A DNA stretch of 13,401 bases. It comes from an uncultured archaeon. GTDB lineage: Archaea; Asgardarchaeota; Lokiarchaeia; Sigyniarchaeales; SOKP01. The DNA lies in the NCBI GenBank assembly GCA_964388035.1, contig CAYLZE010000130.1, positions 1-13,401 of the forward strand, read 5' to 3'. Every line of letters begins with the position of its first letter. Position 1 is the stretch's first letter. Shown here piece after piece: positions 1-9,666 of this stretch. The translations under genes and the position numbers were made by a program. The notes under the pieces are model-generated. The model saw only the letters and a program-made list of their open reading frames with translations, did no database searches and was not told the origin of the DNA.

Positions 1-1152
1 AGGAAAAAAATAGAAGAAACTATTCCTATTATCATAAAAGACTCCAGTGATATGCTGAAAAATGATAAAAATCTTTTAAGAGGATATTTAAGAGCTAATA
101 CGGAGGATCTATTTCAAAGAATCTATTTCAATGAATATAATAATTTATTTGAAATCATAAAAGATTACAAAACTTTTAATCCATTTTCCCTTGTGGTTAA
201 ATTTGATGATAAAGAGTACTCACCCGAACCATATTTAATCACATAGTTCTTTCGTAATACTACCATATCTTTAGATTTTTCTAAAATTTCCCTTAAAGAT
301 AAATTTGAATTATTAATCCAAACCAAGCGAACTATCAGAATAATTAAGAAAAGGGAGCGAATTTCCCGAGAACATGTGGTCATAAAAAGATCAGGGTGGT
401 TAATAGTGGTTCTTTTATTAATTCTGCCCTGGATTTCTTATATTTTTTTTTCTATCACGTTCTTAAAAATCATTAGTTTTTTAATTAGCTTGGTATTAAT
501 CTTATATTTAATATTTAATCATGTTATTTTCAAGTATAAATATCTTACAACCATGCAAGAGCTTCCCCAGCAATCCTATCAAGAGCTTCCCTTACTTAAT
601 TATTATTCCAATAAATTCCGGAACATTTATTCGATTCCCTCAGATTTAAGAAAGAAATGTTCCTATGATTGGTTAATTAATGCCCCTTCATTTCACAATG
701 TAAGAATGTGTAATGAATTAAAAGTAATTTTTAAAAATTTAGAACGTCCTATTGTGTTGAGACTTCCTCATAAATTGTCGAAAAATATCCTTTCATTTTA
801 TGTTCCCAAAAATAAACACATTAAAGAAGTTGATTTTCAACTTGATTTAGAATTACCATACATGACTAGAATCGTCGGTTGGTTATTGGGAATGAATATC
901 ATGCTCATGAACATGATGATATTATCGATTATATATTTAATATTTAGTTTCAGTTCAGCAATCCCGCTTGATTTCGATAACATTCGTGTTATCATTCCAT
1001 TTCTTACCCTATTAATTGGATTTTTTGGTAAAAATATTTTAGAAAATCCCACTCGAGATTTGCATAAGTGGGCGGGAGTATTAATATCCTTAACAGTTAT
1101 CACCGGATTACTATTACTTTTTTCTTCCATAATCGATCTACTTATTCCTTGA
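1..1152 (+). CDS. 5'-truncated multi-pass membrane protein of unknown function; one reading frame with an internal TAG at 244-246 (pseudogene, sequence error or amber readthrough)
   Basis: Frame +1 is open from base 1 (RKKIEETIPII...) to TAG 244-246, then open again from 247 (FFRNTTISLDFSK...) through the GTG at 376 to TGA 1150-1152. The two listed ORFs 52..246 and 376..1152 share this frame. The distal part has about 2 + 3 hydrophobic segments around a soluble loop. Confidence 0.65.
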
Positions 1153-1351: not shown

Positions 1352-2212
1352 ATGCAAATATTTGAAGTCCTTGAAGTTCAAGATAAATACCCATACATGG
1401 AAGCTCGAGAAATTTTCGAAGGTTTTATTGTCAAGGACATTATTAACTCGGATTCAAGTAAAAAAAAAGTCTTCCTTATAGTAGATCATGTTGAAAAAAA
1501 GATTTGGGCATATTTTGGTGAAGAAAGTTCCATCAAACTGCAAGTATTTGGTGTTCTTTTGTCTAATCGAATAAGAGAACAATTAAAATTATTCTATAGA
1601 GTAGACTTTTTAAATAATTTTTCTCCCAATGATCCCGCTCTACATGAAATATTAAAAAATAAAATTGGTCAGGGAAAAGCAAATGAGATAACAATCGAGA
1701 ACATGGGAAACCTTGAACAATTAAAGATTAGCCCTCCCTATATTACACTTCTTAAGAACTCAAATCCAACCAAAGTAATTGAAAACGTGTATGAATTTCC
1801 TCAACCGGATAAATTTATAAGAAAGTTTTTAATTATTGGTGGTGCCATTTATTCTGAAGAGGAAATTATTAATAAATTTGTAGAAGAGGAAGAAATTATT
1901 AAAAAGCCCGTGAAATTAGGAAGATTAAATAATGGTTTTACCTTTTTTGACGATCAAGACTACTCCACTAGAATTTTAATCAAAGATAGAAAAATTGAAG
2001 CTGTGGAGTTATTAATACCCGAAAAAGAAAGGTCTCAACCCTTAGAATTAAATATCCCCATAACTAAAAATCCAAAATTTACTAATGAAGGAAATCTGGA
2101 ATCTTTAATTGATGCTTTTCAAGTGCCACCCGCAGAATTTACAGTAGAAGAAATAAAACAAGTCGAGCTATTTGAAAAGATAAAATCTATAGAAAAAGAA
2201 AAAAAAGAATGA
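1352..2212 (+). CDS. Asgard-type gelsolin-like domain protein with a C-terminal 'X'-like domain (1DGelX-like), putative actin regulator
   Basis: The N-terminal KKVFLIVDHVEKKIWAYFGEESS...LSNRIREQ resembles the gelsolin core (vfilD...iyvWxGxxSs plus a long helix). The C-terminal FIRKFLIIGGAIY...GFTFFDDQDYSTRILIKDRKIEAVELL resembles, from memory, the domain that follows gelsolin in Asgard proteins. Confidence 0.6.
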   Translation: MQIFEVLEVQDKYPYMEAREIFEGFIVKDIINSDSSKKKVFLIVDHVEKKIWAYFGEESSIKLQVFGVLLSNRIREQLKLFYRVDFLNNFSPNDPALHEILKNKIGQGKANEITIENMGNLEQLKISPPYITLLKNSNPTKVIENVYEFPQPDKFIRKFLIIGGAIYSEEEIINKFVEEEEIIKKPVKLGRLNNGFTFFDDQDYSTRILIKDRKIEAVELLIPEKERSQPLELNIPITKNPKFTNEGNLESLIDAFQVPPAEFTVEEIKQVELFEKIKSIEKEKKE

Positions 2213-3558
2213 TTTTATTAATCAATCCAAAAACTTGTAAGGACTCGAAAAGAAAGGAACCGTGTATTCGAGAACCAAATTTAGGACTTTTATATTTAAC
2301 TGCTATTCTAGATGCAAATGAGATTTCTGTCGATATTTTGGATTTGGAGCAATATCATGATATTTCTCCTTTTGAATTAGAAGATCTCATTAGAAGTAAA
2401 ATACCTCATTACCAAATATTCGGTATAACATGCTTGACAAACACGTTCCATATCGCTATAAAAATCGCTAACATTATCAAGGAAGCAGATCCACATAAGA
2501 TAATGGTTCTTGGAGGTCCTCATGTCTCTTTTCAATTTAAAGTAGTGCTAAAAGAATATGGAATCAAAAAAAGAATTATAGATTATATATGTGTAGGTGA
2601 GTCTGAGAGAAGCTTTTTAAGATTGGTTCAGTTATTTTTTTCCATGCAAAATCATGAAATAAATCTTAAAGAATTCGAGGAAAAACTCACTCTCATCAAG
2701 GGAATTGCATTCGTTAATGCAAATGAAGAAATCAGATTCACGGGATTTGACGAAGAATTGATAAATCTAGAAGCTTTGCCCTTACCTGCGAGATATAAAT
2801 TAACGCATGAAAGTTATTATTATTCTGTAGCTAATATTATTGTAAATCGAGGATGTCCCAATCAATGTTCTTTTTGCGTCAGGCAGCAACTATTCAAAAA
2901 TACTGTGAGGTTAAGAAGTATTGAATCCATAGAGACAGAGATACGAGATATATTATCCATGCAGACCTATTCTTATATTAATTTTTATGATAATCTGAAT
3001 ATCAGTGAAAAGTATCTCATAAATTTCTGTAACATGGTTATTAAAAATCAATTTGAAATACCATGGGGATGCGAATTAAGAGTTGATAAATTAACGAGAG
3101 AACAAGGGGTGCTTTTAAAGACAGCCGGATGCAAATTAGTTGCCACGGGAATAGAGTCAGCGAGCGATAAGGTGCTTAAAATGAATTTTAAATATCAAGA
3201 TCCCCTGCAGGTCAAAAAAGGGATAACAATATTAAAAGAAAATACAATTCCCGTTCAAGCATATTTTGTATTTGGATTACCCGGAGAAACAATCAATACG
3301 GTGTGTAAAACAATTCGATTTATAAAGTCATTACCTTTCCAGAAAGAAGATAAAATTAATTATTTTGTGGCAACTCCATTTCCGGGATCGAAATTATGGG
3401 ATCAAGCTAAACAATTCGGAATCAACATTTTTGAAAGCGATTTTAAAAAATATGATTGTGAACATCTGATTTTTGAAACCAAGGATTTAAAAAAGGATCA
3501 ACTCTTAAAACTGACGAAGTGGTTAAAAAAAGTAGAAAGGATTTATTCAGAAGAATAA
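2209..3558 (+). CDS. Cobalamin (B12)-binding domain radical SAM protein
   Basis: N-terminal B12-binding signatures (PNLGLLYLTAIL, IFGITCLT, VLGGPHVS, DYICVGESE), the CxxxCxxC motif NRGCPNQCSFC, then GIESAS, FVFGLPGET and TPFPGSKLW. Its ATG overlaps the upstream stop (ATGA, 2209-2212). Confidence 0.93.
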   Translation: MILLINPKTCKDSKRKEPCIREPNLGLLYLTAILDANEISVDILDLEQYHDISPFELEDLIRSKIPHYQIFGITCLTNTFHIAIKIANIIKEADPHKIMVLGGPHVSFQFKVVLKEYGIKKRIIDYICVGESERSFLRLVQLFFSMQNHEINLKEFEEKLTLIKGIAFVNANEEIRFTGFDEELINLEALPLPARYKLTHESYYYSVANIIVNRGCPNQCSFCVRQQLFKNTVRLRSIESIETEIRDILSMQTYSYINFYDNLNISEKYLINFCNMVIKNQFEIPWGCELRVDKLTREQGVLLKTAGCKLVATGIESASDKVLKMNFKYQDPLQVKKGITILKENTIPVQAYFVFGLPGETINTVCKTIRFIKSLPFQKEDKINYFVATPFPGSKLWDQAKQFGINIFESDFKKYDCEHLIFETKDLKKDQLLKLTKWLKKVERIYSEE

Positions 3559-3762: not shown

Positions 3763-5037
3763 ATGGATAATGAATATTATGTGGGTGAAGCCTTAATCGG
3801 AGAAGGTCAAAATTTAGCTCACATTGATTTAATAATAGGTTCAAAACAAGGTCCCATTGGTATTTCCTTTGCTAATAGCATCTCCACTCCCAGCATGGGA
3901 CATGGGGGATTGTTATCTTGCATTAGACCCAATCTTTTATCAAAACCCTATACCCTCATCGTACCCAAAGTGACCATAGAAAAGATGGAAGATGCTAATA
4001 AAATCTTTGGGCCCGCACAAGCAGCCGTGTCGAAAGGAGTTGCAGATGCTGTCGAAGAGGGAATAATTCCCATGGAAAAACTCGATGAATGGGTCATCAT
4101 TGCCAGTGTTTTCATCCATCCTGAAGCTTCTGATTATAGACGAATTTATCAATATAATTATGGTGCCACTAAATTAGCCATTAAAAGAGCCTTGATGGGA
4201 TATCCTCCTATTGAGAAAATATTTTATGATAAGGACCGGGCAAGACATCCCGTGGCAGGTATGAGAGTTCCTAGACTCTGGAGACCCCCGTATATTCAAG
4301 TTGCGCTAGATGATCCTTCCATCGAACATCAGAAAAAAGTGGTTAAAGGCTTACCGAAAAGTGATCGGATCATCTTGGAAATTGGTACTCCTTTTCTTAA
4401 AAAATACGGAATGGAAGCAATTAGTGAAATACGAGAATTAGCGGAAGATAAATTTATTGTTGCTGATTTAAAGACCTTAGATGTGGGGAAACTTGAAGTA
4501 GATTTCGCTTTCGATGCAACTAGCGACGCAGTGGTTGCTAGTGGATTAGCGTCGCCTAGTTCTCTTGACAAATTCATTCTCGAAGCTCAAAGATTAGGGA
4601 TTTATGCTTTTGTGGATACCATGGAATTAACTAATCCCATTGAAAAATTGAAACAATTAAAACAAACTCCCGATGTCGTTATTCTTCATAGAGCCATAGA
4701 TGCGGAAAACGCAGCGACAGGAACTGATGATGCTCAGAAATTGCATTGGAAAAATATCGCCAAGATAAAGGAAATCTATAAAGACCAAAAACTTGTTTCG
4801 GGACGAGATCGCGTGTTAGTAGCAGTGGCAGGAGGCATAGATCACCGATCTGCTCGCTATGCTTTGGAAATGAATGCCGATATTCTTATTGTAGGAAGAT
4901 TTATAACCTCCTCTAAAGACATAAAAAATGCAATGCGTCTTCTTTTAAATAGCTTACCAGGCTATAGCGATATCGATCTCAAACGGGTCCATAGTGAAGA
5001 TGACGATAGCTCTGTAAAAAAACCCGATTGGGATTAA
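3763..5037 (+). CDS. fae-hps: Bifunctional formaldehyde-activating enzyme / 3-hexulose-6-phosphate synthase
   Basis: Fae domain: VGEALIGEG..AHIDLIIGSK, KPYTLIVPKVT, FGPAQAAVSKGVADAV, VFIHP, YNYGATKLAI. HPS domain: YIQVALD, LEIGTPFLK, VADLKTLDVG, LHRAID, VAVAGGI, ADILIVGRFIT. Confidence 0.95.
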   Translation: MDNEYYVGEALIGEGQNLAHIDLIIGSKQGPIGISFANSISTPSMGHGGLLSCIRPNLLSKPYTLIVPKVTIEKMEDANKIFGPAQAAVSKGVADAVEEGIIPMEKLDEWVIIASVFIHPEASDYRRIYQYNYGATKLAIKRALMGYPPIEKIFYDKDRARHPVAGMRVPRLWRPPYIQVALDDPSIEHQKKVVKGLPKSDRIILEIGTPFLKKYGMEAISEIRELAEDKFIVADLKTLDVGKLEVDFAFDATSDAVVASGLASPSSLDKFILEAQRLGIYAFVDTMELTNPIEKLKQLKQTPDVVILHRAIDAENAATGTDDAQKLHWKNIAKIKEIYKDQKLVSGRDRVLVAVAGGIDHRSARYALEMNADILIVGRFITSSKDIKNAMRLLLNSLPGYSDIDLKRVHSEDDDSSVKKPDWD

Positions 5038-5284: not shown

Positions 5285-7786
5285 TTAGCGGATGGGTCGA
5301 GAATTTGCGGTGAAAATTGGACCAATAAATTGAGAATACAATTTTGCATAAGAATCTTGTGTAGATACCATGCTAATAAGTTGCGATTCATCCGCCGTAG
5401 CCGGTGCAATGATAACTTCTTCCGCATCTCTTGTTACTGCATAATATTCTCCAGGGGTGGATAATTGTCTGAATTGAATGTTTCCTAATAATTTCATTTT
5501 ATTGAGGATGGGACTATATACTTCTAAGTCGAAGTTGCTGGTGATCATGAATCTTGCCGCTTTCTTCTGATAAGCCATTTCAGAAACAAATTTCAAAACT
5601 TCGGGTAAAACTTCGGGGATAACAATGATTATGGAGGATTTCACGCGATAAATCATGTCCCTAATGCAAGAAATCAAAGCTGCTCTTCCGACAGTATGCC
5701 AAGTTGTTATTTTTGCTGTTTCTTTGATATTCGAAGAGGCGACATGAATTTCTTTTAATTGATCTTCATTCGTTTCAGCAATATCGGTGGCATCCTTGAT
5801 AGCTTTTATAATATTCGTATTAAAATCTGAAATTATATCTTTTTCTGATTGAATGTTGTTCATAATAGTCGTTGTTAAACTATTCTCGAGCGTGGTTGCA
5901 TTTTCTTGATAAGATTTTTTATGGCGAGTCAAGACTTGCTCAATGCTAGAATCCATTTTAGAGGAAGTTTCATTCCAACCCGTAATTTGTTTAGAAGTGG
6001 TATCAGAAACAAAAGTTTTAGAATTATCAAAATCCATGCGAACTTTATTTAATCGATCTTCGCCCACTTTTTTTCTCTTGGAGACAAAATTATCGATCTC
6101 TCTGATGATGTCTTCAACGATCGTGGATGCATCCTTTTTTCCAGATGTAAATTTAACATCAACATCTTTTATCCAGTCTTCATTTTTAGTCTTAATATCT
6201 TTATCAAAATTACTATAGTGTCTTAACGTTGTCTCTTCATGTCTTTTTATTTCGTCTCCATATTGCATATTATGCTGGGAAACACTACTTTCTAAGGAAT
6301 CTTTTAATTTAATTGTCGTTTCGGAGCAGTCTTTCACGCCCTTTTGTAACGTTGTATCAATTTCTGAGGTCATATCAGTAGCTAAAATCTCTAATTGGGC
6401 TTCAAGTGACTTTTGTGCTTCATTATTTAAACTTTCTGTTTCACTCGAGATGGTTTCAAACTCGTTCGATATCACGGAAGTAATTTCATTTTTCAACTCA
6501 CTAGAAGTGGCTCTAGTATTATCTATATATCCATTACATTCACTTGAAAACGATTCTCTCATTGGCTCCGTGTAAGTAAGGACATCACGAATAACAGCCT
6601 CGTTTCTTGCCTTGTATTTTGCTTTTTTCCCTGCCCAGAAAAATCCCTTTTTTGCTATGTCTTCAGAAAAATCAGTAAAACGATTAGCATGTTCTAACAA
6701 ATTATCAATTAATCTCACGGTAGTGTTCTTGAAATTGGTAGTTTGTTCCGCTAAAGTTTCATGTCGTTTTTCAATTTTAGATTTCAAGTCCGATTGTAGA
6801 TTGTCTGTGGATTTTTGCATTTGACTCTCATGCGTTTTTAATAACTTGGAGATTTGATTTTTTAAATCGTTTACTATTTTTTCCATGCGTTCCAAGTATT
6901 TATCAAGAATTTGCTCCATTTGTGGTTTTAATTCATTAGCAATGCTAGCATGGCGATCCACGTGCTCATCGAGATTTTTCTTTAATTCCATTTTTAATGT
7001 TTCTGCACGCTCATCAAAATCTTTCAACATATCAGCAACAATGGAACTAATTCCTTGTTTAGCAGTCTCGATTTCATTTTGATTCATCTCAACAAAAGCT
7101 TTAGAAATTGCTTTTAAATCGGCATTTAGAGTATCCTTAATATTATGGACTTTCTTTTCAAAAGTTTTGATAGAATTTTTATGAGAATCGGAAATTGAGA
7201 GCAATTCTGAATCCAAACTCTGAAAATCTCCTTTTAATTCAGAATAATCTTTTTCTATATTTTCATGTAATTGACTTTCTAAAGTTTTATTCGCAGAAGT
7301 AAAAGAATTTTTTTTCTCTTCAATGGTAGTTTTTACTTCTTTATACTGATTGTCAGTACTTTGAGAAAACTCTTTAACTTGGGAAGCTACAGCTTTATTA
7401 ATCTCGCCTATTTTTCCTGCTTGTACATCATCTAACTTTTTAAATTGATTCGATTGTTCGACTAATATGTTATTTTTAATTGAAGAGATTTCTTTTTTAA
7501 ATACTTCCGATTCCTTAATGAATAAACTTAAATAGGGTTCTAGAGGGATATATCTATCTAATCCTGCAATAGCACCCTCAATTTTCTTTACAAAACCCTT
7601 CTCTTCTAAAGATGCAGTTATTTTGGTTACCTCATCATATTCGATGCCATCTTCTTCGGAAAACATTAAATAAACTTGGCTTGGCGTTGCTCTGGGAGCT
7701 CGCAAATATCCTAAGTATACTTTTATCTGATTTTCATTCAAGCCATATCGGCTAAATAATTCCTTTGGAAATTCCTTGAGACTCAT
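5285..7786 (-). CDS. TrmB-family winged-HTH protein with a ~600-aa coiled-coil insertion and a TrmB-like C-terminal domain
   Basis: aa ~10-84 match the TrmB HTH (YGLNENQIKVYLGYL...ATPSQV...SLEEKGFVKKIEG...RYIPLEP). aa ~85-690 are K/E/Q/S/D-rich and helical with only two prolines (P288, P408). aa ~695-833 match the TrmB C-terminal/PLD-like fold (TWHTVGRAALISCIRDMIYRVKSSIIIVIPE...VTRDAEEVIIAP). Confidence 0.8.
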   Translation of the reverse strand: MSLKEFPKELFSRYGLNENQIKVYLGYLRAPRATPSQVYLMFSEEDGIEYDEVTKITASLEEKGFVKKIEGAIAGLDRYIPLEPYLSLFIKESEVFKKEISSIKNNILVEQSNQFKKLDDVQAGKIGEINKAVASQVKEFSQSTDNQYKEVKTTIEEKKNSFTSANKTLESQLHENIEKDYSELKGDFQSLDSELLSISDSHKNSIKTFEKKVHNIKDTLNADLKAISKAFVEMNQNEIETAKQGISSIVADMLKDFDERAETLKMELKKNLDEHVDRHASIANELKPQMEQILDKYLERMEKIVNDLKNQISKLLKTHESQMQKSTDNLQSDLKSKIEKRHETLAEQTTNFKNTTVRLIDNLLEHANRFTDFSEDIAKKGFFWAGKKAKYKARNEAVIRDVLTYTEPMRESFSSECNGYIDNTRATSSELKNEITSVISNEFETISSETESLNNEAQKSLEAQLEILATDMTSEIDTTLQKGVKDCSETTIKLKDSLESSVSQHNMQYGDEIKRHEETTLRHYSNFDKDIKTKNEDWIKDVDVKFTSGKKDASTIVEDIIREIDNFVSKRKKVGEDRLNKVRMDFDNSKTFVSDTTSKQITGWNETSSKMDSSIEQVLTRHKKSYQENATTLENSLTTTIMNNIQSEKDIISDFNTNIIKAIKDATDIAETNEDQLKEIHVASSNIKETAKITTWHTVGRAALISCIRDMIYRVKSSIIIVIPEVLPEVLKFVSEMAYQKKAARFMITSNFDLEVYSPILNKMKLLGNIQFRQLSTPGEYYAVTRDAEEVIIAPATADESQLISMVSTQDSYAKLYSQFIGPIFTANSRPIR

Positions 7787-8259: not shown

Positions 8260-9666
8260 TTAGATGCCTGCTAATAGAGAGTTTATTTGATTCGCATACA
8301 AAATTAATAGAATTAGAATTATAATGAATGCAATGCAATATAATTGGTGTACATTAAAAACATTTCCAACATCCACATTTTCCATTCTTTCCTTATACTC
8401 TTTAATTTTTAAATTAAAGAACATTTTTTGGCCTTTTTTTGTAAGTATCAAACTATCCTCGATTTTTTCTATCATGTCTTGTTTGATTAACTTATTAAGA
8501 TGTTTTTCCACGATATCAGCTCCTAAATTATTATAAAAAAAATCCGCAAACCCTCGATAATATAATCTTCCGTGCTTAAGTCCCGTTTCAAATTTTTTAA
8601 TTAAATCTGCTTGGGATATTTTTTCACGACGAATGCTTCCCAACAAATATCCCGTCAATCGATTTTCATAGATCTGGTCGGCGGCTACCTTTATCTCAGT
8701 TATATCAAAATCCTCTTCTTTAGCTAATATTTCCCGCAACACTTCAATACCCTCTTTGAAAATTAGAATGGAAATGATAATTCCGACAATTGCATCAACA
8801 AAATAGAAATGAAAGATTGCAAACGTCAATCCAATTAGCACCCCTAAGGAAATCTTTACGTTTAATTCTGAGTCCTTGGAATCACTTAATAATGACAAAT
8901 TACCCGAGGTCCTACCAATAAGACTCTTTCCATACATTAGACCATAATTTAAAGCAATAGAACATCCCCCTATGAGATAAGCTTGAATTGTAGGTATAAT
9001 GGGAAGGGGATTGAATAACTTCTCAATGCTGTCCCATAATAAAGTAAATCCGGTAATTAACATTAATCCTATAATAATTACACTTGCTAATTTATCTTTT
9101 TTAAAGTAAAAAGCCACCAGATAAATAATACCAATTTTTATGAGATCCGTTAAGTTTTCAAAACCTTCCGAAATCATTCCTTGAGAATCAATTTGAAATC
9201 CAATCAGTATTTTAAAGAACGAGAGAAAGATTAAACAGATTGCTGTTAAAATCATTATGGTGTGCTTATTCATGAGAATTTGCATGTAATGACTGGTAAA
9301 AAGGGTATTACAGAAGGATGCTTCTACGAGTTTTCTACCTTCTGAAGTTAAATTAAGCTGATTCCCATTTTTTATTTCAATCAATTTTTGTTTTTTGGCA
9401 TGTTCTATAAATTCCTTAATATCTTCATCTTCAACTACTAATTGTTTAGTAGAAGAAATAAAAAATGAGCTCATGACTTTTTTAATTTCGTTCAAATCTT
9501 CAATTCCATCATAAATACAACATAAAAAACCATAAAAATAGGAATCGTGACCGCCGTGGCGTTTGGTAGGATAATGCGTTTTTAATAACTCTTGAGCTTC
9601 CCGATGTAAAGCAGTATTCAAGGATTTATTGGCAAATTTTCTTCCAGTTTTTCTGAACGCATACAT
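8260..9666 (-). CDS. Cation diffusion facilitator (CDF)-like transmembrane domain flanked by two winged-helix-like domains
   Basis: aa ~137-310 give six hydrophobic helices with CDF-like motifs (KILIGFQIDSQGMISEGFENLTD; GNLSLLSDSKDSELN; VDAIVGIIISILIFKEG). Both flanks carry wHTH wing-type motifs (KKQKLIEIKNGNQLNLTSEGRKL; LNKLIKQDMIEKIEDSLILTKKGQK). One more hydrophobic helix sits at the C-terminus. Confidence 0.75.
   Translation of the reverse strand: MYAFRKTGRKFANKSLNTALHREAQELLKTHYPTKRHGGHDSYFYGFLCCIYDGIEDLNEIKKVMSSFFISSTKQLVVEDEDIKEFIEHAKKQKLIEIKNGNQLNLTSEGRKLVEASFCNTLFTSHYMQILMNKHTIMILTAICLIFLSFFKILIGFQIDSQGMISEGFENLTDLIKIGIIYLVAFYFKKDKLASVIIIGLMLITGFTLLWDSIEKLFNPLPIIPTIQAYLIGGCSIALNYGLMYGKSLIGRTSGNLSLLSDSKDSELNVKISLGVLIGLTFAIFHFYFVDAIVGIIISILIFKEGIEVLREILAKEEDFDITEIKVAADQIYENRLTGYLLGSIRREKISQADLIKKFETGLKHGRLYYRGFADFFYNNLGADIVEKHLNKLIKQDMIEKIEDSLILTKKGQKMFFNLKIKEYKERMENVDVGNVFNVHQLYCIAFIIILILLILYANQINSLLAGI

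What the first reader, a model, noticed from the sequence alone, without database searches (positions are those of the whole stretch)
6610..6655. Basic-aromatic motif KKGFFWAGKKAKYK at the midpoint of the coiled coil: candidate hairpin tip and membrane anchor
Seen: W384 lies within a few residues of the midpoint (~387) of the helical region aa ~85-690. The motif has two glycines and an FFW cluster flanked by lysines, unlike the rest of the rod. Inference: this symmetry is what a fold-back hairpin predicts, as with the Rad50 hook or the SMC hinge. Lys-flanked aromatics are typical of membrane-inserting or dimerising tips, so the protein could tether DNA to the membrane or join two DNA-bound heads tip to tip.
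Basis: partly seen in the sequence, partly recalled or inferred. Interest (0 to 1): 0.7.

Follow-up and report, generated by a model that had tools for sequence, protein, structure and literature searches.

The report
Greasy, basic tip of Asgard rod protein
The short lysine- and aromatic-rich motif is the turning point of a roughly 44-nm folded-back helical rod inserted into a TrmB-type regulator of Asgard archaea; the fold-back is close to certain, but whether the tip grips the membrane, a partner protein or a second tip is still untested.

Summary
Observation confirmed. KKGFFWAGKKAKYK is aa 379-392 of an 833-aa protein (window 5285-7786, minus strand; motif 6611-6652). The protein has a TrmB-type winged helix (aa 1-84), a helical region of about 600 aa with 11/3 (hendecad) periodicity, and a TrmB/TrmBL2-type PLD-like C-domain (aa 694-833).

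The fold-back is supported by four lines of evidence:
- In 129 of 130 full-length relatives, N-arm length ranges from 257 to 407 aa and the C arm is exactly 13 aa longer.
- Covarying pairs lie on the antidiagonal i+j of about 763-765, which centres on G381/F382.
- AlphaFold2 places the only turn at 378-387.
- Hendecad amplitude is lowest in the window covering the motif.

The tip carries +6 charge (family median +7). It holds the only aromatic run in an otherwise acidic rod, and it is conserved, with a variant form in a sister clade.

What the tip binds is not shown. I favour peripheral binding to membrane or another polyanion (about 0.4) over a protein contact, a purely structural cap or nucleic-acid binding. 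The DNA-tether half of the idea is weakened because the winged helix is acidic and has lost basic residues of the TrmBL2 recognition helix.

The family is near-universal in this Asgard order, and my four searches of the held paper library found no description of it. This scan had already flagged it on other genomes. A pair of "joint" segments with conserved His/His and Asp-or-His/Cys is more conserved than the tip.

The parts
5285..7786 (-). Whole gene, 833 aa plus stop: TrmB-headed fold-back rod protein
   Evidence: ORF. The N-terminus (M1, L3, K4, K8) is conserved in 121 homologues. Single full-length copy in the genome, plus one remote paralogue.
7535..7786 (-). aa 1-84: TrmB-type winged helix-turn-helix, net acidic
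   Evidence: Pfam PF01978, E 4.6e-8, 33.3 bits against a cut-off of 25.6. The family N-terminal profile hits TrmB 3qph (E 9e-9) and TrmBL2 5bpd (E 3e-7) first in the PDB. Structural matches to Fur, BlaI and MecI winged helices, Z 11-12. Net charge -3, family median -5.
6653..7534 (-). aa 85-378: outgoing (N) arm of the hairpin, hendecad periodicity
   Evidence: Hydrophobic periodicity peaks at 3.66 residues, with almost no power at 3.5. Hydrophobic positions recur at registers 0, 4, 7 and 8 of 11. Modelled as helix 85-268 and 304-378.
6611..6652 (-). aa 379-392, KKGFFWAGKKAKYK: reversal point and basic-aromatic cap of the hairpin (the finding)
   Evidence: Position, conservation. The centre defined by arm lengths and paired indels falls at 381.5. 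Median covariation sum is 765. AlphaFold2 loop at 379-387 in the full model and 378-381 in the fragment model. Hendecad amplitude is lowest in the window 360-392.
6605..6679 (-). aa 370-394: extended tip, including the aromatic residues that precede the turn (F370 invariant, F373, I/M377) and Y391 and R394 after it
   Evidence: Column counts. In the i+j of about 763-765 register, F373 faces Y391 and F370 faces A393/R394 (inference). Mean weighted conservation is 0.75, against 0.62 and 0.58 for the flanking arm segments.
5717..6610 (-). aa 393-690: returning (C) arm of the hairpin
   Evidence: Periodicity 3.66-3.68. Helices 388-465 and 491-685. Exactly 13 aa longer than the N arm in 120 of 121 close homologues and in all nine full-length proteins, six of them sister-clade.
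6878..6982 (-). aa 269-303: N-arm half of the 'joint', with invariant H275, H279 and P288
   Evidence: Window 282-301 is the most conserved 20-aa window of the whole protein, 0.93. AlphaFold2 gives low confidence and no helix here in the full model, although hendecad amplitude is highest here.
6293..6391 (-). aa 466-498: C-arm half of the 'joint', with invariant D486 and C487
   Evidence: Second most conserved window, 479-498, 0.89. It faces 269-303 in the antiparallel register (275+487 = 762). Position 486 is His in most of the sister clade. P0123 has lost both H275 and C487.
5288..5707 (-). aa 694-833: TrmB/TrmBL2-type PLD-like C-terminal domain without an HKD motif
   Evidence: VIA-align gives TrmB 2f5t Z 18.0, rmsd 1.9 A over 131 aa (chain residues 110-242); TrmBL2 Z 15-16; Nuc, Zucchini and FAM83 Z 12-15. 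Foldseek agrees. No HxK(x)4D motif. Pfam finds nothing by sequence.

Best explanation
The motif is the turning point and exposed cap of an intramolecular, antiparallel, hendecad-based helical hairpin. Each arm is about 297-310 residues, or about 44 nm at 0.15 nm per residue. The hairpin replaces the short linker helix of a TrmB/TrmBL2-type protein. It therefore brings the N-terminal winged helix and the C-terminal PLD-like domain back together as one head and pushes the motif about 44 nm away from it.

The chain reverses at A378-G381. FFW forms the first turn of the returning helix, where it has nothing to pack against but the turn itself. Y391 and the upstream F370/F373/M377 close the end of the bundle, and about seven lysines or arginines surround it.

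The tip is the only cationic, aromatic patch on a strongly acidic rod, and its exposed lysines are nearly invariant. I therefore propose that it is a peripheral binding site for an anionic surface. The cytoplasmic face of the membrane is the most likely target: aromatic side chains would enter the interface, lysines would bind head groups, and the acidic rod would be held away from the surface. On this view the protein is a fixed-length spacer or tether between the membrane and whatever the TrmB-like head binds. Its length changes in evolution in matched steps on both arms, mostly multiples of 11 residues.

Shown here: the hairpin, the position of the tip, its conservation and its charge pattern. 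Inferred: exposure of FFW, membrane binding and the spacer role.

My odds: fold-back with the motif at the apex, about 0.95; the tip is a ligand-binding site rather than only a turn, about 0.8; the ligand is membrane, about 0.4.
For: Arm coupling. Distances were measured between conserved anchors (P84, G381, G386, W696), so they do not depend on gap placement. N and C arm lengths were 257/270, 286/299, 297/310, 319/332 and 341/354 in 120 of 121 close homologues, and 301/314, 308/321, 319/332, 363/376 and 407/420 in the sister clade at 38-45% identity. Length classes differ by equal indels in both arms whose coordinates sum to 757-763.

Covariation. After removing gapped columns, 16 of the 25 strongest long-range MI-APC pairs have i+j between 753 and 775, against a 4.4% background; for the top 100 pairs (33 in the band) the hypergeometric p is 2e-20; the median sum is 765.

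Structure models. The full-length AlphaFold2 model has a loop at 379-387 between helices 304-378 and 388-465. The 175-aa fragment model (pLDDT 88, pTM 0.66) has a turn at 378-381. Its best PDB matches are long antiparallel hairpins: chemoreceptors 3g67, 3g6b and 2ch7 with TMq 0.46-0.55, the Smc5/6 arm, and EmrA. The full rod, 90-674, aligns to 306 of the 309 residues of chemoreceptor 2ch7.

Periodicity. The period is 3.66 in both arms. Amplitude is lowest and the phase jumps at 360-392.

Tip chemistry. Charge is +6 (family median +7), against -7 and -19 for the arms. It is the top basic-hydrophobic window and holds the only aromatic run in the rod.

Conservation of exposed lysines is given. 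The sister clade keeps a basic-Gly-aromatic-Gly-basic tip with a 4-aa insertion, and the geometric centre falls on it in proteins of 755-1050 aa.

A 19%-identical paralogue in the same genome has an aromatic cluster (W413, F416, F419, G420, F423, F424) at its predicted centre, residue 419.
Against: No tool here tests lipid binding. The tip is short: three or four aromatic residues give only about -4 kcal/mol of interfacial partitioning by the Wimley-White scale (my arithmetic, scale values recalled from memory).

If the C-arm hendecad register is extended into the tip, F383, W384 and Y391 fall on core positions, so some of them may be buried rather than exposed.

AlphaFold2 confidence at the tip is low: pLDDT below 50 in the full model and 59-69 in the fragment.

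The paralogue's tip is aromatic but not basic, and most relatives at 25% identity or less show no basic-aromatic peak at the predicted centre.

The tip (0.75) is less conserved than the joint (0.88 and 0.85), so it may not be the main functional site.

No relative has a transmembrane segment at the apex.

The winged helix looks poor for DNA binding, so what would be tethered is unknown.
Confidence: 0.42

Rival explanations
1. The tip is a protein-protein contact. It either joins two rods tip to tip or side by side (a metal-free functional analogue of the Rad50 hook), or it docks a conserved partner, as the conserved hairpin tip of chemoreceptors docks CheA and CheW.
For: An aromatic cluster is conserved even in the paralogue whose tip is not basic, which fits a hydrophobic protein interface better than electrostatics. 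The symmetric, quantised arm lengths resemble chemoreceptor length classes, in which the tip is the partner-binding site (PMC5907407). TrmB and TrmBL2 heads oligomerise (established knowledge of the family; TrmBL2 structures 5bpd and 5box). In a dimer that would place two tips side by side.
Against: No conserved neighbouring gene that could encode a partner was found. The gene stands alone, and its only recurrent neighbour is a convergent fae-hps gene. Seven near-invariant lysines would repel each other in a homotypic tip-to-tip contact unless an anionic ligand bridged them.
Confidence: 0.25
2. The motif is only a structural turn. The two glycines allow the chain reversal, the aromatic residues cap the hydrophobic core at the end of the two-helix bundle, and the lysines offset the acidic helices. 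It binds no ligand.
For: Gly381 and Gly386 are nearly invariant. F370, F373 and M377 lie upstream at i, i+3, i+7 spacing, and Y391 faces F373 in the i+j = 764 register, which looks like a closed aromatic mini-core. The joint is more conserved than the tip.
Against: A turn does not need K387, K388, K390, K392 and R394 at 92-100% conservation with almost no Lys-to-Arg exchange. The sister clade remodelled the turn with a 4-aa insertion yet kept the basic and aromatic character. Three consecutive aromatic residues in the first turn after a reversal cannot all be buried (geometric inference).
Confidence: 0.13
3. The tip, not the head, is the nucleic-acid-binding element. A Lys-rich patch with stacking or wedging aromatic residues binds DNA or RNA, while the decayed winged helix and the PLD-like domain serve for oligomerisation or ligand sensing.
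For: The tip is the only strongly cationic region (+6 to +7), while the winged helix is acidic and has lost basic residues of the TrmBL2 recognition helix. Lys plus Phe/Trp/Tyr is common chemistry for nucleic-acid binding (general knowledge).
Against: The paralogue's tip has about zero net charge yet keeps the aromatic residues. Arg is almost absent among the conserved basic positions, which is unusual for DNA-binding surfaces. A single loop of about 15 aa is a weak DNA binder unless it is multimerised.
Confidence: 0.1
4. The whole rod behaves like an exchangeable apolipoprotein. The hairpin opens at the tip, which acts as a hinge, and the 11-mer amphipathic helices lie flat on a lipid surface.
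For: Pfam Apolipoprotein A1/A4/E matches aa 210-366 at E 1.9e-10, and the same family is precomputed for nearly all homologues. Repeats of 11 and 22 residues are typical of lipid-surface helices (general knowledge).
Against: The score of 41 bits is far below the family cut-off of 90, so the match probably reflects shared periodicity and composition. The exact coupling of arm lengths over evolution argues that the arms pair with each other in the functional state. Only 23-30% of rod positions are hydrophobic, and the arms are strongly acidic.
Confidence: 0.05

Closest known systems
TrmBL2 of Thermococcales (PDB 5bpd, 5box, 5bpi, 5bqt) and TrmB of Pyrococcus furiosus (3qph, 2f5t)
   Same: Same two globular domains in the same order. 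The TrmB-type winged helix matches at profile E 9e-9 and 3e-7 and Pfam PF01978 above its cut-off. The PLD-like C-domain matches at Z 18.0, rmsd 1.9 A to TrmB residues 110-242, and Z 15-16 to TrmBL2. Like TrmBL2, it lacks the sugar-binding beta-barrel subdomain of TrmB.
   Different: TrmB and TrmBL2 are 260-340 aa, with one short coiled-coil helix between the domains. Here that linker is a hairpin of about 600 aa. The region corresponding to the recognition helix and wing carries about -2 charge against about +5 in TrmBL2 (hand count from the alignment). TrmBL2 coats DNA as a chromatin protein (PMC4877046); nothing here shows DNA binding.
Cytoplasmic signalling hairpin of methyl-accepting chemotaxis proteins (e.g. 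Thermotoga 2ch7, 3g67)
   Same: A long antiparallel helical hairpin whose length evolves by symmetric, quantised indels in both arms and whose tip is conserved (PMC5907407). These are the best structural matches for the rod and for the tip fragment.
   Different: The repeat unit is 11 residues (period 3.66), not 7. There was no match to the chemoreceptor signalling domain (PF00015) among Pfam hits at E up to 1, and no transmembrane or HAMP parts. Here the conserved tip is basic and aromatic, and the most conserved part is a joint about 95 residues from the tip.
SMC, Rad50 and MukB-type fold-back coiled coils (Rad50 zinc hook, SMC hinge, cohesin elbow)
   Same: N- and C-terminal parts form one head at the end of a long antiparallel coiled coil with a specialised apex and a discontinuity along the arm. 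There are weak structural matches to the cohesin elbow 7ogt (Z 12.9), JetC and Rad50.
   Different: There is no ABC ATPase head and no Walker A motif. The apex has no CxxC hook and no hinge domain. The arms are hendecad-based. The match scores lie in the range that long helices reach by shape alone (note).
Basic-hydrophobic peripheral membrane-binding segments (e.g. the MARCKS effector domain, the MinD C-terminal targeting helix); recalled from memory, not tested here
   Same: A short segment that combines clustered Lys with Phe, Trp or Tyr and has no acidic residues. It is the top-scoring basic-hydrophobic window of the protein.
   Different: Those segments are terminal or unstructured. This one is a constrained loop and first helical turn at the end of a rod. 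Membrane binding is not shown.

Membership tests
TrmB family (Pfam PF01978 winged helix plus TrmB-type C-terminal domain) | N-terminal TrmB-type winged helix-turn-helix | tested here: met
   PF01978 at E 4.6e-8, 33.3 bits against a cut-off of 25.6. The family profile finds TrmB (E 9e-9) and TrmBL2 (E 3e-7) as the top PDB hits.
TrmB family (Pfam PF01978 winged helix plus TrmB-type C-terminal domain) | C-terminal PLD-like domain of the TrmB effector-domain type | tested here: met
   VIA-align gives Z 18.0, rmsd 1.9 A over 131 aa to TrmB 2f5t residues 110-242, and Z 15-16 to TrmBL2. Sequence alone is weak (E 0.44; no Pfam hit).
TrmB family (Pfam PF01978 winged helix plus TrmB-type C-terminal domain) | Short single coiled-coil linker helix between the two domains | tested here: not met
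   The linker is replaced by a hairpin of about 606 aa, aa 85-690.
TrmB family (Pfam PF01978 winged helix plus TrmB-type C-terminal domain) | Basic recognition helix and wing able to bind DNA | tested here: inconclusive
   The recognition-helix region carries -3 and the whole winged helix -3 (family median -5). R48, Y50, R54 and K58 of TrmBL2 align to E, T, A and E. However, K4, K8, R13, R29, R32, K67 and R78 are conserved. Binding itself cannot be tested here.
SMC / Rad50 / MukB superfamily | ABC-type ATPase head with a Walker A motif | tested here: not met
   No [AG]xxxxGK[ST] motif anywhere in the protein. The head domains are a winged helix and a PLD-like domain.
SMC / Rad50 / MukB superfamily | Apex is a zinc hook (CxxC) or a hinge domain | tested here: not met
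   No CxxC. The only cysteines are at 417, 487 and 707. The apex is a loop of 4-9 residues.
SMC / Rad50 / MukB superfamily | Intramolecular antiparallel coiled-coil arm joining the N- and C-terminal head parts | tested here: met
   Coupled arm lengths, antidiagonal covariation and the hairpin models. This shows a shared design, not homology.
Methyl-accepting chemotaxis protein signalling domain (PF00015) | Sequence match to the chemoreceptor signalling domain, with its conserved tip | tested here: not met
   PF00015 is not among the Pfam matches at E up to 1. The periodicity is 11/3, not 7/2.
Methyl-accepting chemotaxis protein signalling domain (PF00015) | Symmetric quantised indels in the two arms of the hairpin | tested here: met
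   Equal indels of 11, 22, 40 and 44 aa in both arms. The C arm equals the N arm plus 13 in 129 of 130 full-length proteins. This is an analogy only.
Apolipoprotein A1/A4/E (PF01442) | Score above the family's curated cut-off | tested here: not met
   41.2 bits against a cut-off of 90.
Phospholipase D superfamily (catalytic members) | HxK(x)4D catalytic motif | tested here: not met
   No HKD motif is present, although the fold matches Nuc, Zucchini and FAM83 at Z 12-15.

The most novel reading that the evidence does not exclude
This would be a new class of ATPase-free, fixed-length molecular spacer in Asgard archaea. A TrmB-derived head that no longer reads DNA would be held 38-60 nm from the membrane (or from a second head or tip) by a hendecad hairpin. 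The length of that hairpin is set in matched steps on both arms, mostly multiples of 11 residues. It would be stiffened or switched at a conserved His/His and Asp-or-His/Cys joint that binds a metal or senses redox state, and it would end in a basic-aromatic tip that inserts into the membrane. Such a ruler could set distances inside the unusually structured Asgard cell, for example between nucleoid and membrane or across protrusions.
Probability: 0.3. Interest if true: 0.8.

Novelty: new variant of a known kind. Interest (0 to 1): 0.62.

Why it matters
Asgard archaea are the closest known prokaryotic relatives of eukaryotes, and almost nothing is known about how they organise the inside of the cell. 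This protein gave a strong match in 122 of 134 sampled genomes of the window's own family and in 19 of 21 from the other families of its order. It is usually a single copy, and its rod length is tightly controlled.

Coupled changes in the two arms over evolution are a hallmark of machines in which length and register matter, such as chemoreceptors and SMC proteins. If the tip binds membrane, this would be a simple nucleotide-independent tether or ruler derived from a transcription-factor scaffold, and a clear example of a regulator turned into a structural element.

The predictions are directly testable with recombinant protein: rod length by EM, liposome flotation with tip mutants, and metal content of the joint.

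Tried and rejected
1. Complex prediction with two copies of aa 304-465, to test tip-to-tip or side-by-side association. Scores were 0.32, 0.33 and 0.22 against a mark of 0.42, with controls at 0.00. The verdict was 'no answer', so it counts neither for nor against.

2. Literature searches. I searched Asgard + TrmB + coiled-coil; TrmBL2 + Asgard; hendecad + antiparallel + archaea; and the locus tag Lokiarch_28300. No paper in the held library describes this family. One Asgard chromatin preprint lists TrmBL only as a proteome category.

3. Search for the motif elsewhere in the genome by six-frame regular expressions, to see whether it is a reusable targeting module. It occurs only in this gene.

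4. Search for relatives in which a transmembrane segment replaces the apex. None was found. The Kyte-Doolittle hits in full-length relatives lie in the hydrophobic core of the C-domain or near the protein ends, never at the centre of the rod.

5. A basic-hydrophobic peak at the geometric centre as a general rule. It holds for the orthologues and most of the sister clade, but not for most relatives at 25% identity or less, where my anchors may also be imprecise.

6. Operon context. There is no conserved co-directional neighbour.

7. Sequence-only identification of the C-domain failed: Pfam found nothing and PDB phmmer gave E 0.44. Structure comparison was needed.

Burial or exposure of F382, F383 and W384 therefore could not be measured.
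Full report
**1. The observation**

The window is about 30% G+C. It carries an 833-codon ORF on the minus strand at 5285-7786.

- FFW is the only run of two or more aromatic residues in the 606-aa helical region, which has 12 Gly and a net charge of -20.
- I computed a basic-hydrophobic score of my own: Wimley-White interfacial values with the sign reversed, Lys and Arg set to +2, 15-aa window, parameters recalled from memory. The window centred on residue 385 is the maximum for the whole protein (1.10, z = 3.9; next best 0.73).

**2. What the protein is**

- Pfam finds a TrmB winged helix at the N-terminus (PF01978, 33.3 bits, cut-off 25.6). A profile of the family's N-termini hits TrmB (3qph, E 9e-9) and TrmBL2 (5bpd, E 3e-7) before anything else in the PDB.
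- The last 140 residues have no Pfam match. In the AlphaFold2 model they superpose on the first subdomain of the TrmB effector domain (2f5t residues 110-242; Z 18.0, rmsd 1.9 A, 131 aa) and on TrmBL2 (Z 15-16). Catalytic PLD-fold proteins follow at Z 12-15.
- There is no HKD motif, no Walker A motif and no CxxC.
- Between the two domains lie about 606 residues modelled as helix, with only three interruptions.
- The Pfam Apolipoprotein match (41 bits against a cut-off of 90) most likely reflects shared 11-residue periodicity, not homology.

**3. The hairpin**

Five independent lines of evidence support a fold-back with the motif at the apex.

(a) Periodicity. Hydrophobic residues recur with a period of 3.66 in both arms, with essentially no power at 3.5. 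They occupy registers 0, 4, 7 and 8 of 11 in the N arm. The arms are therefore hendecad-based, not heptad-based. The amplitude is lowest of any window within the rod, and the phase jumps by about 100 degrees, in the window 360-392.

(b) Coupled arm lengths. More than 300 homologues were found, and every organism name the sources give is an Asgard lineage. They fall into length classes of 751 (most), 809, 830-833, 874-877 and 917-918 aa.
- The classes differ by equal insertions or deletions in the two arms: 40+40, 11+11, 22+22 and 44+44 residues. The coordinates of each pair sum to 757-763.
- I then measured between conserved anchor residues (P84, G381, G386, W696), which is independent of gap placement. 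The C arm is exactly 13 residues longer than the N arm in 120 of 121 close homologues.
- The same holds in all nine full-length proteins. Six of these are sister-clade proteins at 38-45% identity.
- N-arm lengths are 257, 286, 297, 301, 308, 319, 341, 363 and 407.
- Relative to 297, most steps are multiples of 11.

(c) Covariation. MI-APC was run on the 121-sequence alignment (effective number 27). It puts 100 of the top 150 long-range pairs at i+j = 750-779. After removing all gapped columns, 16 of the top 25 pairs lie at 753-775, against a background of 4.4%, with a median sum of 765.

(d) Structure models. The full-length AlphaFold2 model (pLDDT 75, pTM 0.38) has a loop at 379-387 between helices 304-378 and 388-465. 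A model of aa 296-470 alone (pLDDT 88, pTM 0.66) has two helices joined by a turn at 378-381.

(e) Fold comparison.
- The fragment's best PDB matches are long antiparallel hairpins: soluble and membrane chemoreceptors 3g67, 3g6b and 2ch7 (TMq 0.46-0.55), the Smc5/6 arm, and EmrA.
- The whole rod (90-674) aligns to 306 of the 309 residues of the chemoreceptor hairpin 2ch7, and to the cohesin elbow 7ogt (Z 11-13).
- These scores are in the range long helices reach by shape alone. I take them only as confirmation that the models are folded back.

Lines (b) and (c) place the centre at residue 381.5-383, that is at G381/F382/F383. At 0.15 nm per residue the rod is about 44 nm long, and about 38-60 nm across the family.

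**4. Conservation and centrality of the motif**

Among the 121 homologues at about 50% identity:
- K387 is invariant.
- K388 and K390 are each 120/121.
- G381 is 118, Y391 116, G386 115 and R394 115.
- K392 is 111 and K379 is 110.
- F382 is 108.
- W384 is 106, with the rest Phe.
- F383 is 97, with the rest Leu.

Minor variants read GLFFFGGKKKKYKARW. The sister clade (38-45% identity, 755-1050 aa) has a 4-residue insertion, giving roughly KRGSAWKALFxGKHKxY. The geometric centre calculated from the head anchors falls on the Lys after the aromatic residue in every one of these proteins.

The same genome holds a remote paralogue (L002:88-2805, minus strand; 905 aa; 19% identity). It has the same domain order and 3.68 periodicity, and an aromatic cluster (QWSKFIEFGKNFF, aa 412-424) at its predicted centre, residue 419. 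That tip is not basic.

Two families of about 763 aa have G-F-R-K-P-F-P or V-F-K-K-P-D-P at the centre. Most other relatives at 25% identity or less show nothing obvious there, although my anchors may be imprecise for them.

**5. What the tip does**

This part is inference.
- The tip (aa 376-394) carries +6 (family median +7). The arms carry -7 and -19 (medians -11 and -24), and the winged helix carries -3 (median -5).
- Near-invariance of exposed lysines argues for an anionic ligand rather than a mere turn.
- In the i+j of about 764 register, F373 faces Y391, F370 faces A393/R394, and M377 faces G386/K387. K379 to W384 then form the reversal itself, so at most one of F382, F383 and W384 can be buried.
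- A cationic, aromatic knob on the end of an anionic rod is what one expects of a peripheral membrane-binding tip. The acidic rod would be repelled and would stand off the surface. I rate this the most likely reading, at about 0.4.
- Against it: extending the C-arm register into the tip puts F383, W384 and Y391 on core positions; the paralogue's tip is uncharged; the tip is short; no relative has a transmembrane segment there; and no tool here tests lipid binding.
- The rivals are a protein contact (about 0.25), a purely structural cap (about 0.13), nucleic-acid binding by the tip (about 0.1), and apolipoprotein-like opening of the rod (about 0.05).
- A two-copy complex prediction of aa 304-465 gave no verdict. 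I do not count it either way.

**6. The DNA end of the proposed tether**

Earlier follow-up notes from this scan on other genomes said the DNA-reading helix looks decayed. I checked this here.
- In the alignment to TrmBL2, R48, Y50, R54 and K58 of TrmBL2 correspond to E, T, A and E in this protein.
- By hand count from that alignment, the recognition helix plus wing carries about -2 here and about +5 in TrmBL2. One search gives the family-wide charges.
- Some basic residues are conserved: K4, K8, R13, R29, R32, K67 and R78. DNA binding is therefore doubtful but not excluded.
- 'DNA-to-membrane tether' is thus weaker than 'fixed-length spacer between the membrane and whatever the TrmB-like head binds or assembles into'.

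**7. A joint that is more conserved than the tip**

- With sequence weighting, the most conserved 20-aa windows of the entire protein are 282-301 (0.93) and 479-498 (0.89). The tip scores 0.75 and the globular domains 0.73-0.79.
- The two segments face each other in the antiparallel register.
- AlphaFold2 breaks both helices there with low confidence (269-303 and 466-490), although hendecad amplitude is highest there.
- Invariant H275 and H279 on one arm lie opposite invariant D486 and C487 on the other (275+487 = 762).
- In most of the sister clade, position 486 is His. The one protein that lacks H275 (Tyr in P0123) also lacks C487 (Ala).
- This looks like an inter-arm metal or redox site, a clamp or switch about 95 residues (14 nm) from the tip. 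It was not tested further.

**8. Distribution and context**

- Strong matches occur in 122 of 134 sampled genomes of the window's own family and in 19 of 21 from the other three families of the order, usually as one full-length gene. Other classes of the phylum give only weak matches.
- The gene stands alone. The only recurrent neighbour is a convergent fae-hps gene.
- The motif occurs nowhere else in the genome.

**9. Comparison with what is known, and novelty**

- The protein meets the TrmB-family tests for both globular domains but not for the linker. It fails the defining tests for SMC/Rad50 (no ATPase, hook or hinge), for the chemoreceptor signalling domain, for apolipoproteins and for catalytic PLD enzymes.
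- In design it works most like a chemoreceptor hairpin, which has symmetric quantised indels and a conserved tip (PMC5907407). Here the repeat is 11 residues rather than 7, and the hairpin sits on a TrmBL2-like head.
- I found no description in the held literature. That library lacks most subscription journals, so this is weak evidence of absence.
- The scan had already flagged the family on several other genomes, with follow-up reports reaching the same architecture.
- I class it as a new variant of a known kind: a TrmB-family protein turned into a fold-back rod.

**10. Verdict**

- The hairpin-tip reading is supported at about 0.95.
- The membrane-anchor and dimerising-tip readings are plausible but untested.
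- The DNA-tether reading is weakened.
- Interest 0.62.

Noticed in passing
window 6950-6964 (H275, H279) and 6326-6331 (D486, C487), minus strand: Invariant His275 and His279 on the outgoing arm lie opposite invariant Asp486 and Cys487 on the returning arm (275+487 = 762). Position 486 is His in most of the sister clade. The one homologue lacking H275 (P0123) also lacks C487. This is a candidate inter-arm metal-binding or redox site.
   Followed up: partly
window 6878-6982 and 6293-6391, minus strand (aa 269-303 and 466-498): These two facing 'joint' segments are the most conserved stretches of the whole protein (0.93 and 0.89), above the tip and both globular domains. AlphaFold2 breaks both helices here, although hendecad amplitude is highest here. 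They may form an elbow or a partner-binding site.
   Followed up: partly
L002:88-2805 (minus strand) = G000 contig C8: A remote paralogue of 905 aa (19% identity) has the same winged helix, hendecad hairpin and PLD-like domain order. Its aromatic but uncharged cluster QWSKFIEFGKNFF sits at the predicted centre.
   Followed up: partly
window 3763-5037 (+), and loci L014, L015, L016: A fused fae-hps gene (formaldehyde-activating enzyme plus an OMP-decarboxylase/HUMPS-type domain) lies convergent to the rod gene in this window and in L015 and L016, and one gene further away in L014. This is conserved synteny without operon logic.
   Followed up: no
window 8260-9666 (-): This 468-aa protein combines a cation-efflux (CDF) membrane core with a winged-helix match (HTH_45) near its C-terminal part. 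That is an unusual transporter fusion.
   Followed up: no
window 1352-2212 (+): This 286-aa ORF has only a weak, sub-threshold gelsolin-repeat match (E 0.044). It may be a divergent Asgard gelsolin-like protein.
   Followed up: no
proteins P0205 (322 aa) and P0217 (284 aa): Short stand-alone homologues of the C-terminal PLD-like domain are followed by one to three strongly hydrophobic, transmembrane-like segments. Some members of this domain family may therefore be membrane-anchored.
   Followed up: no
window 2209-3558 (+): A B12-binding radical SAM enzyme gene overlaps the stop of the upstream gelsolin-like ORF by 4 bases (2209-2212), which suggests translational coupling.
   Followed up: no
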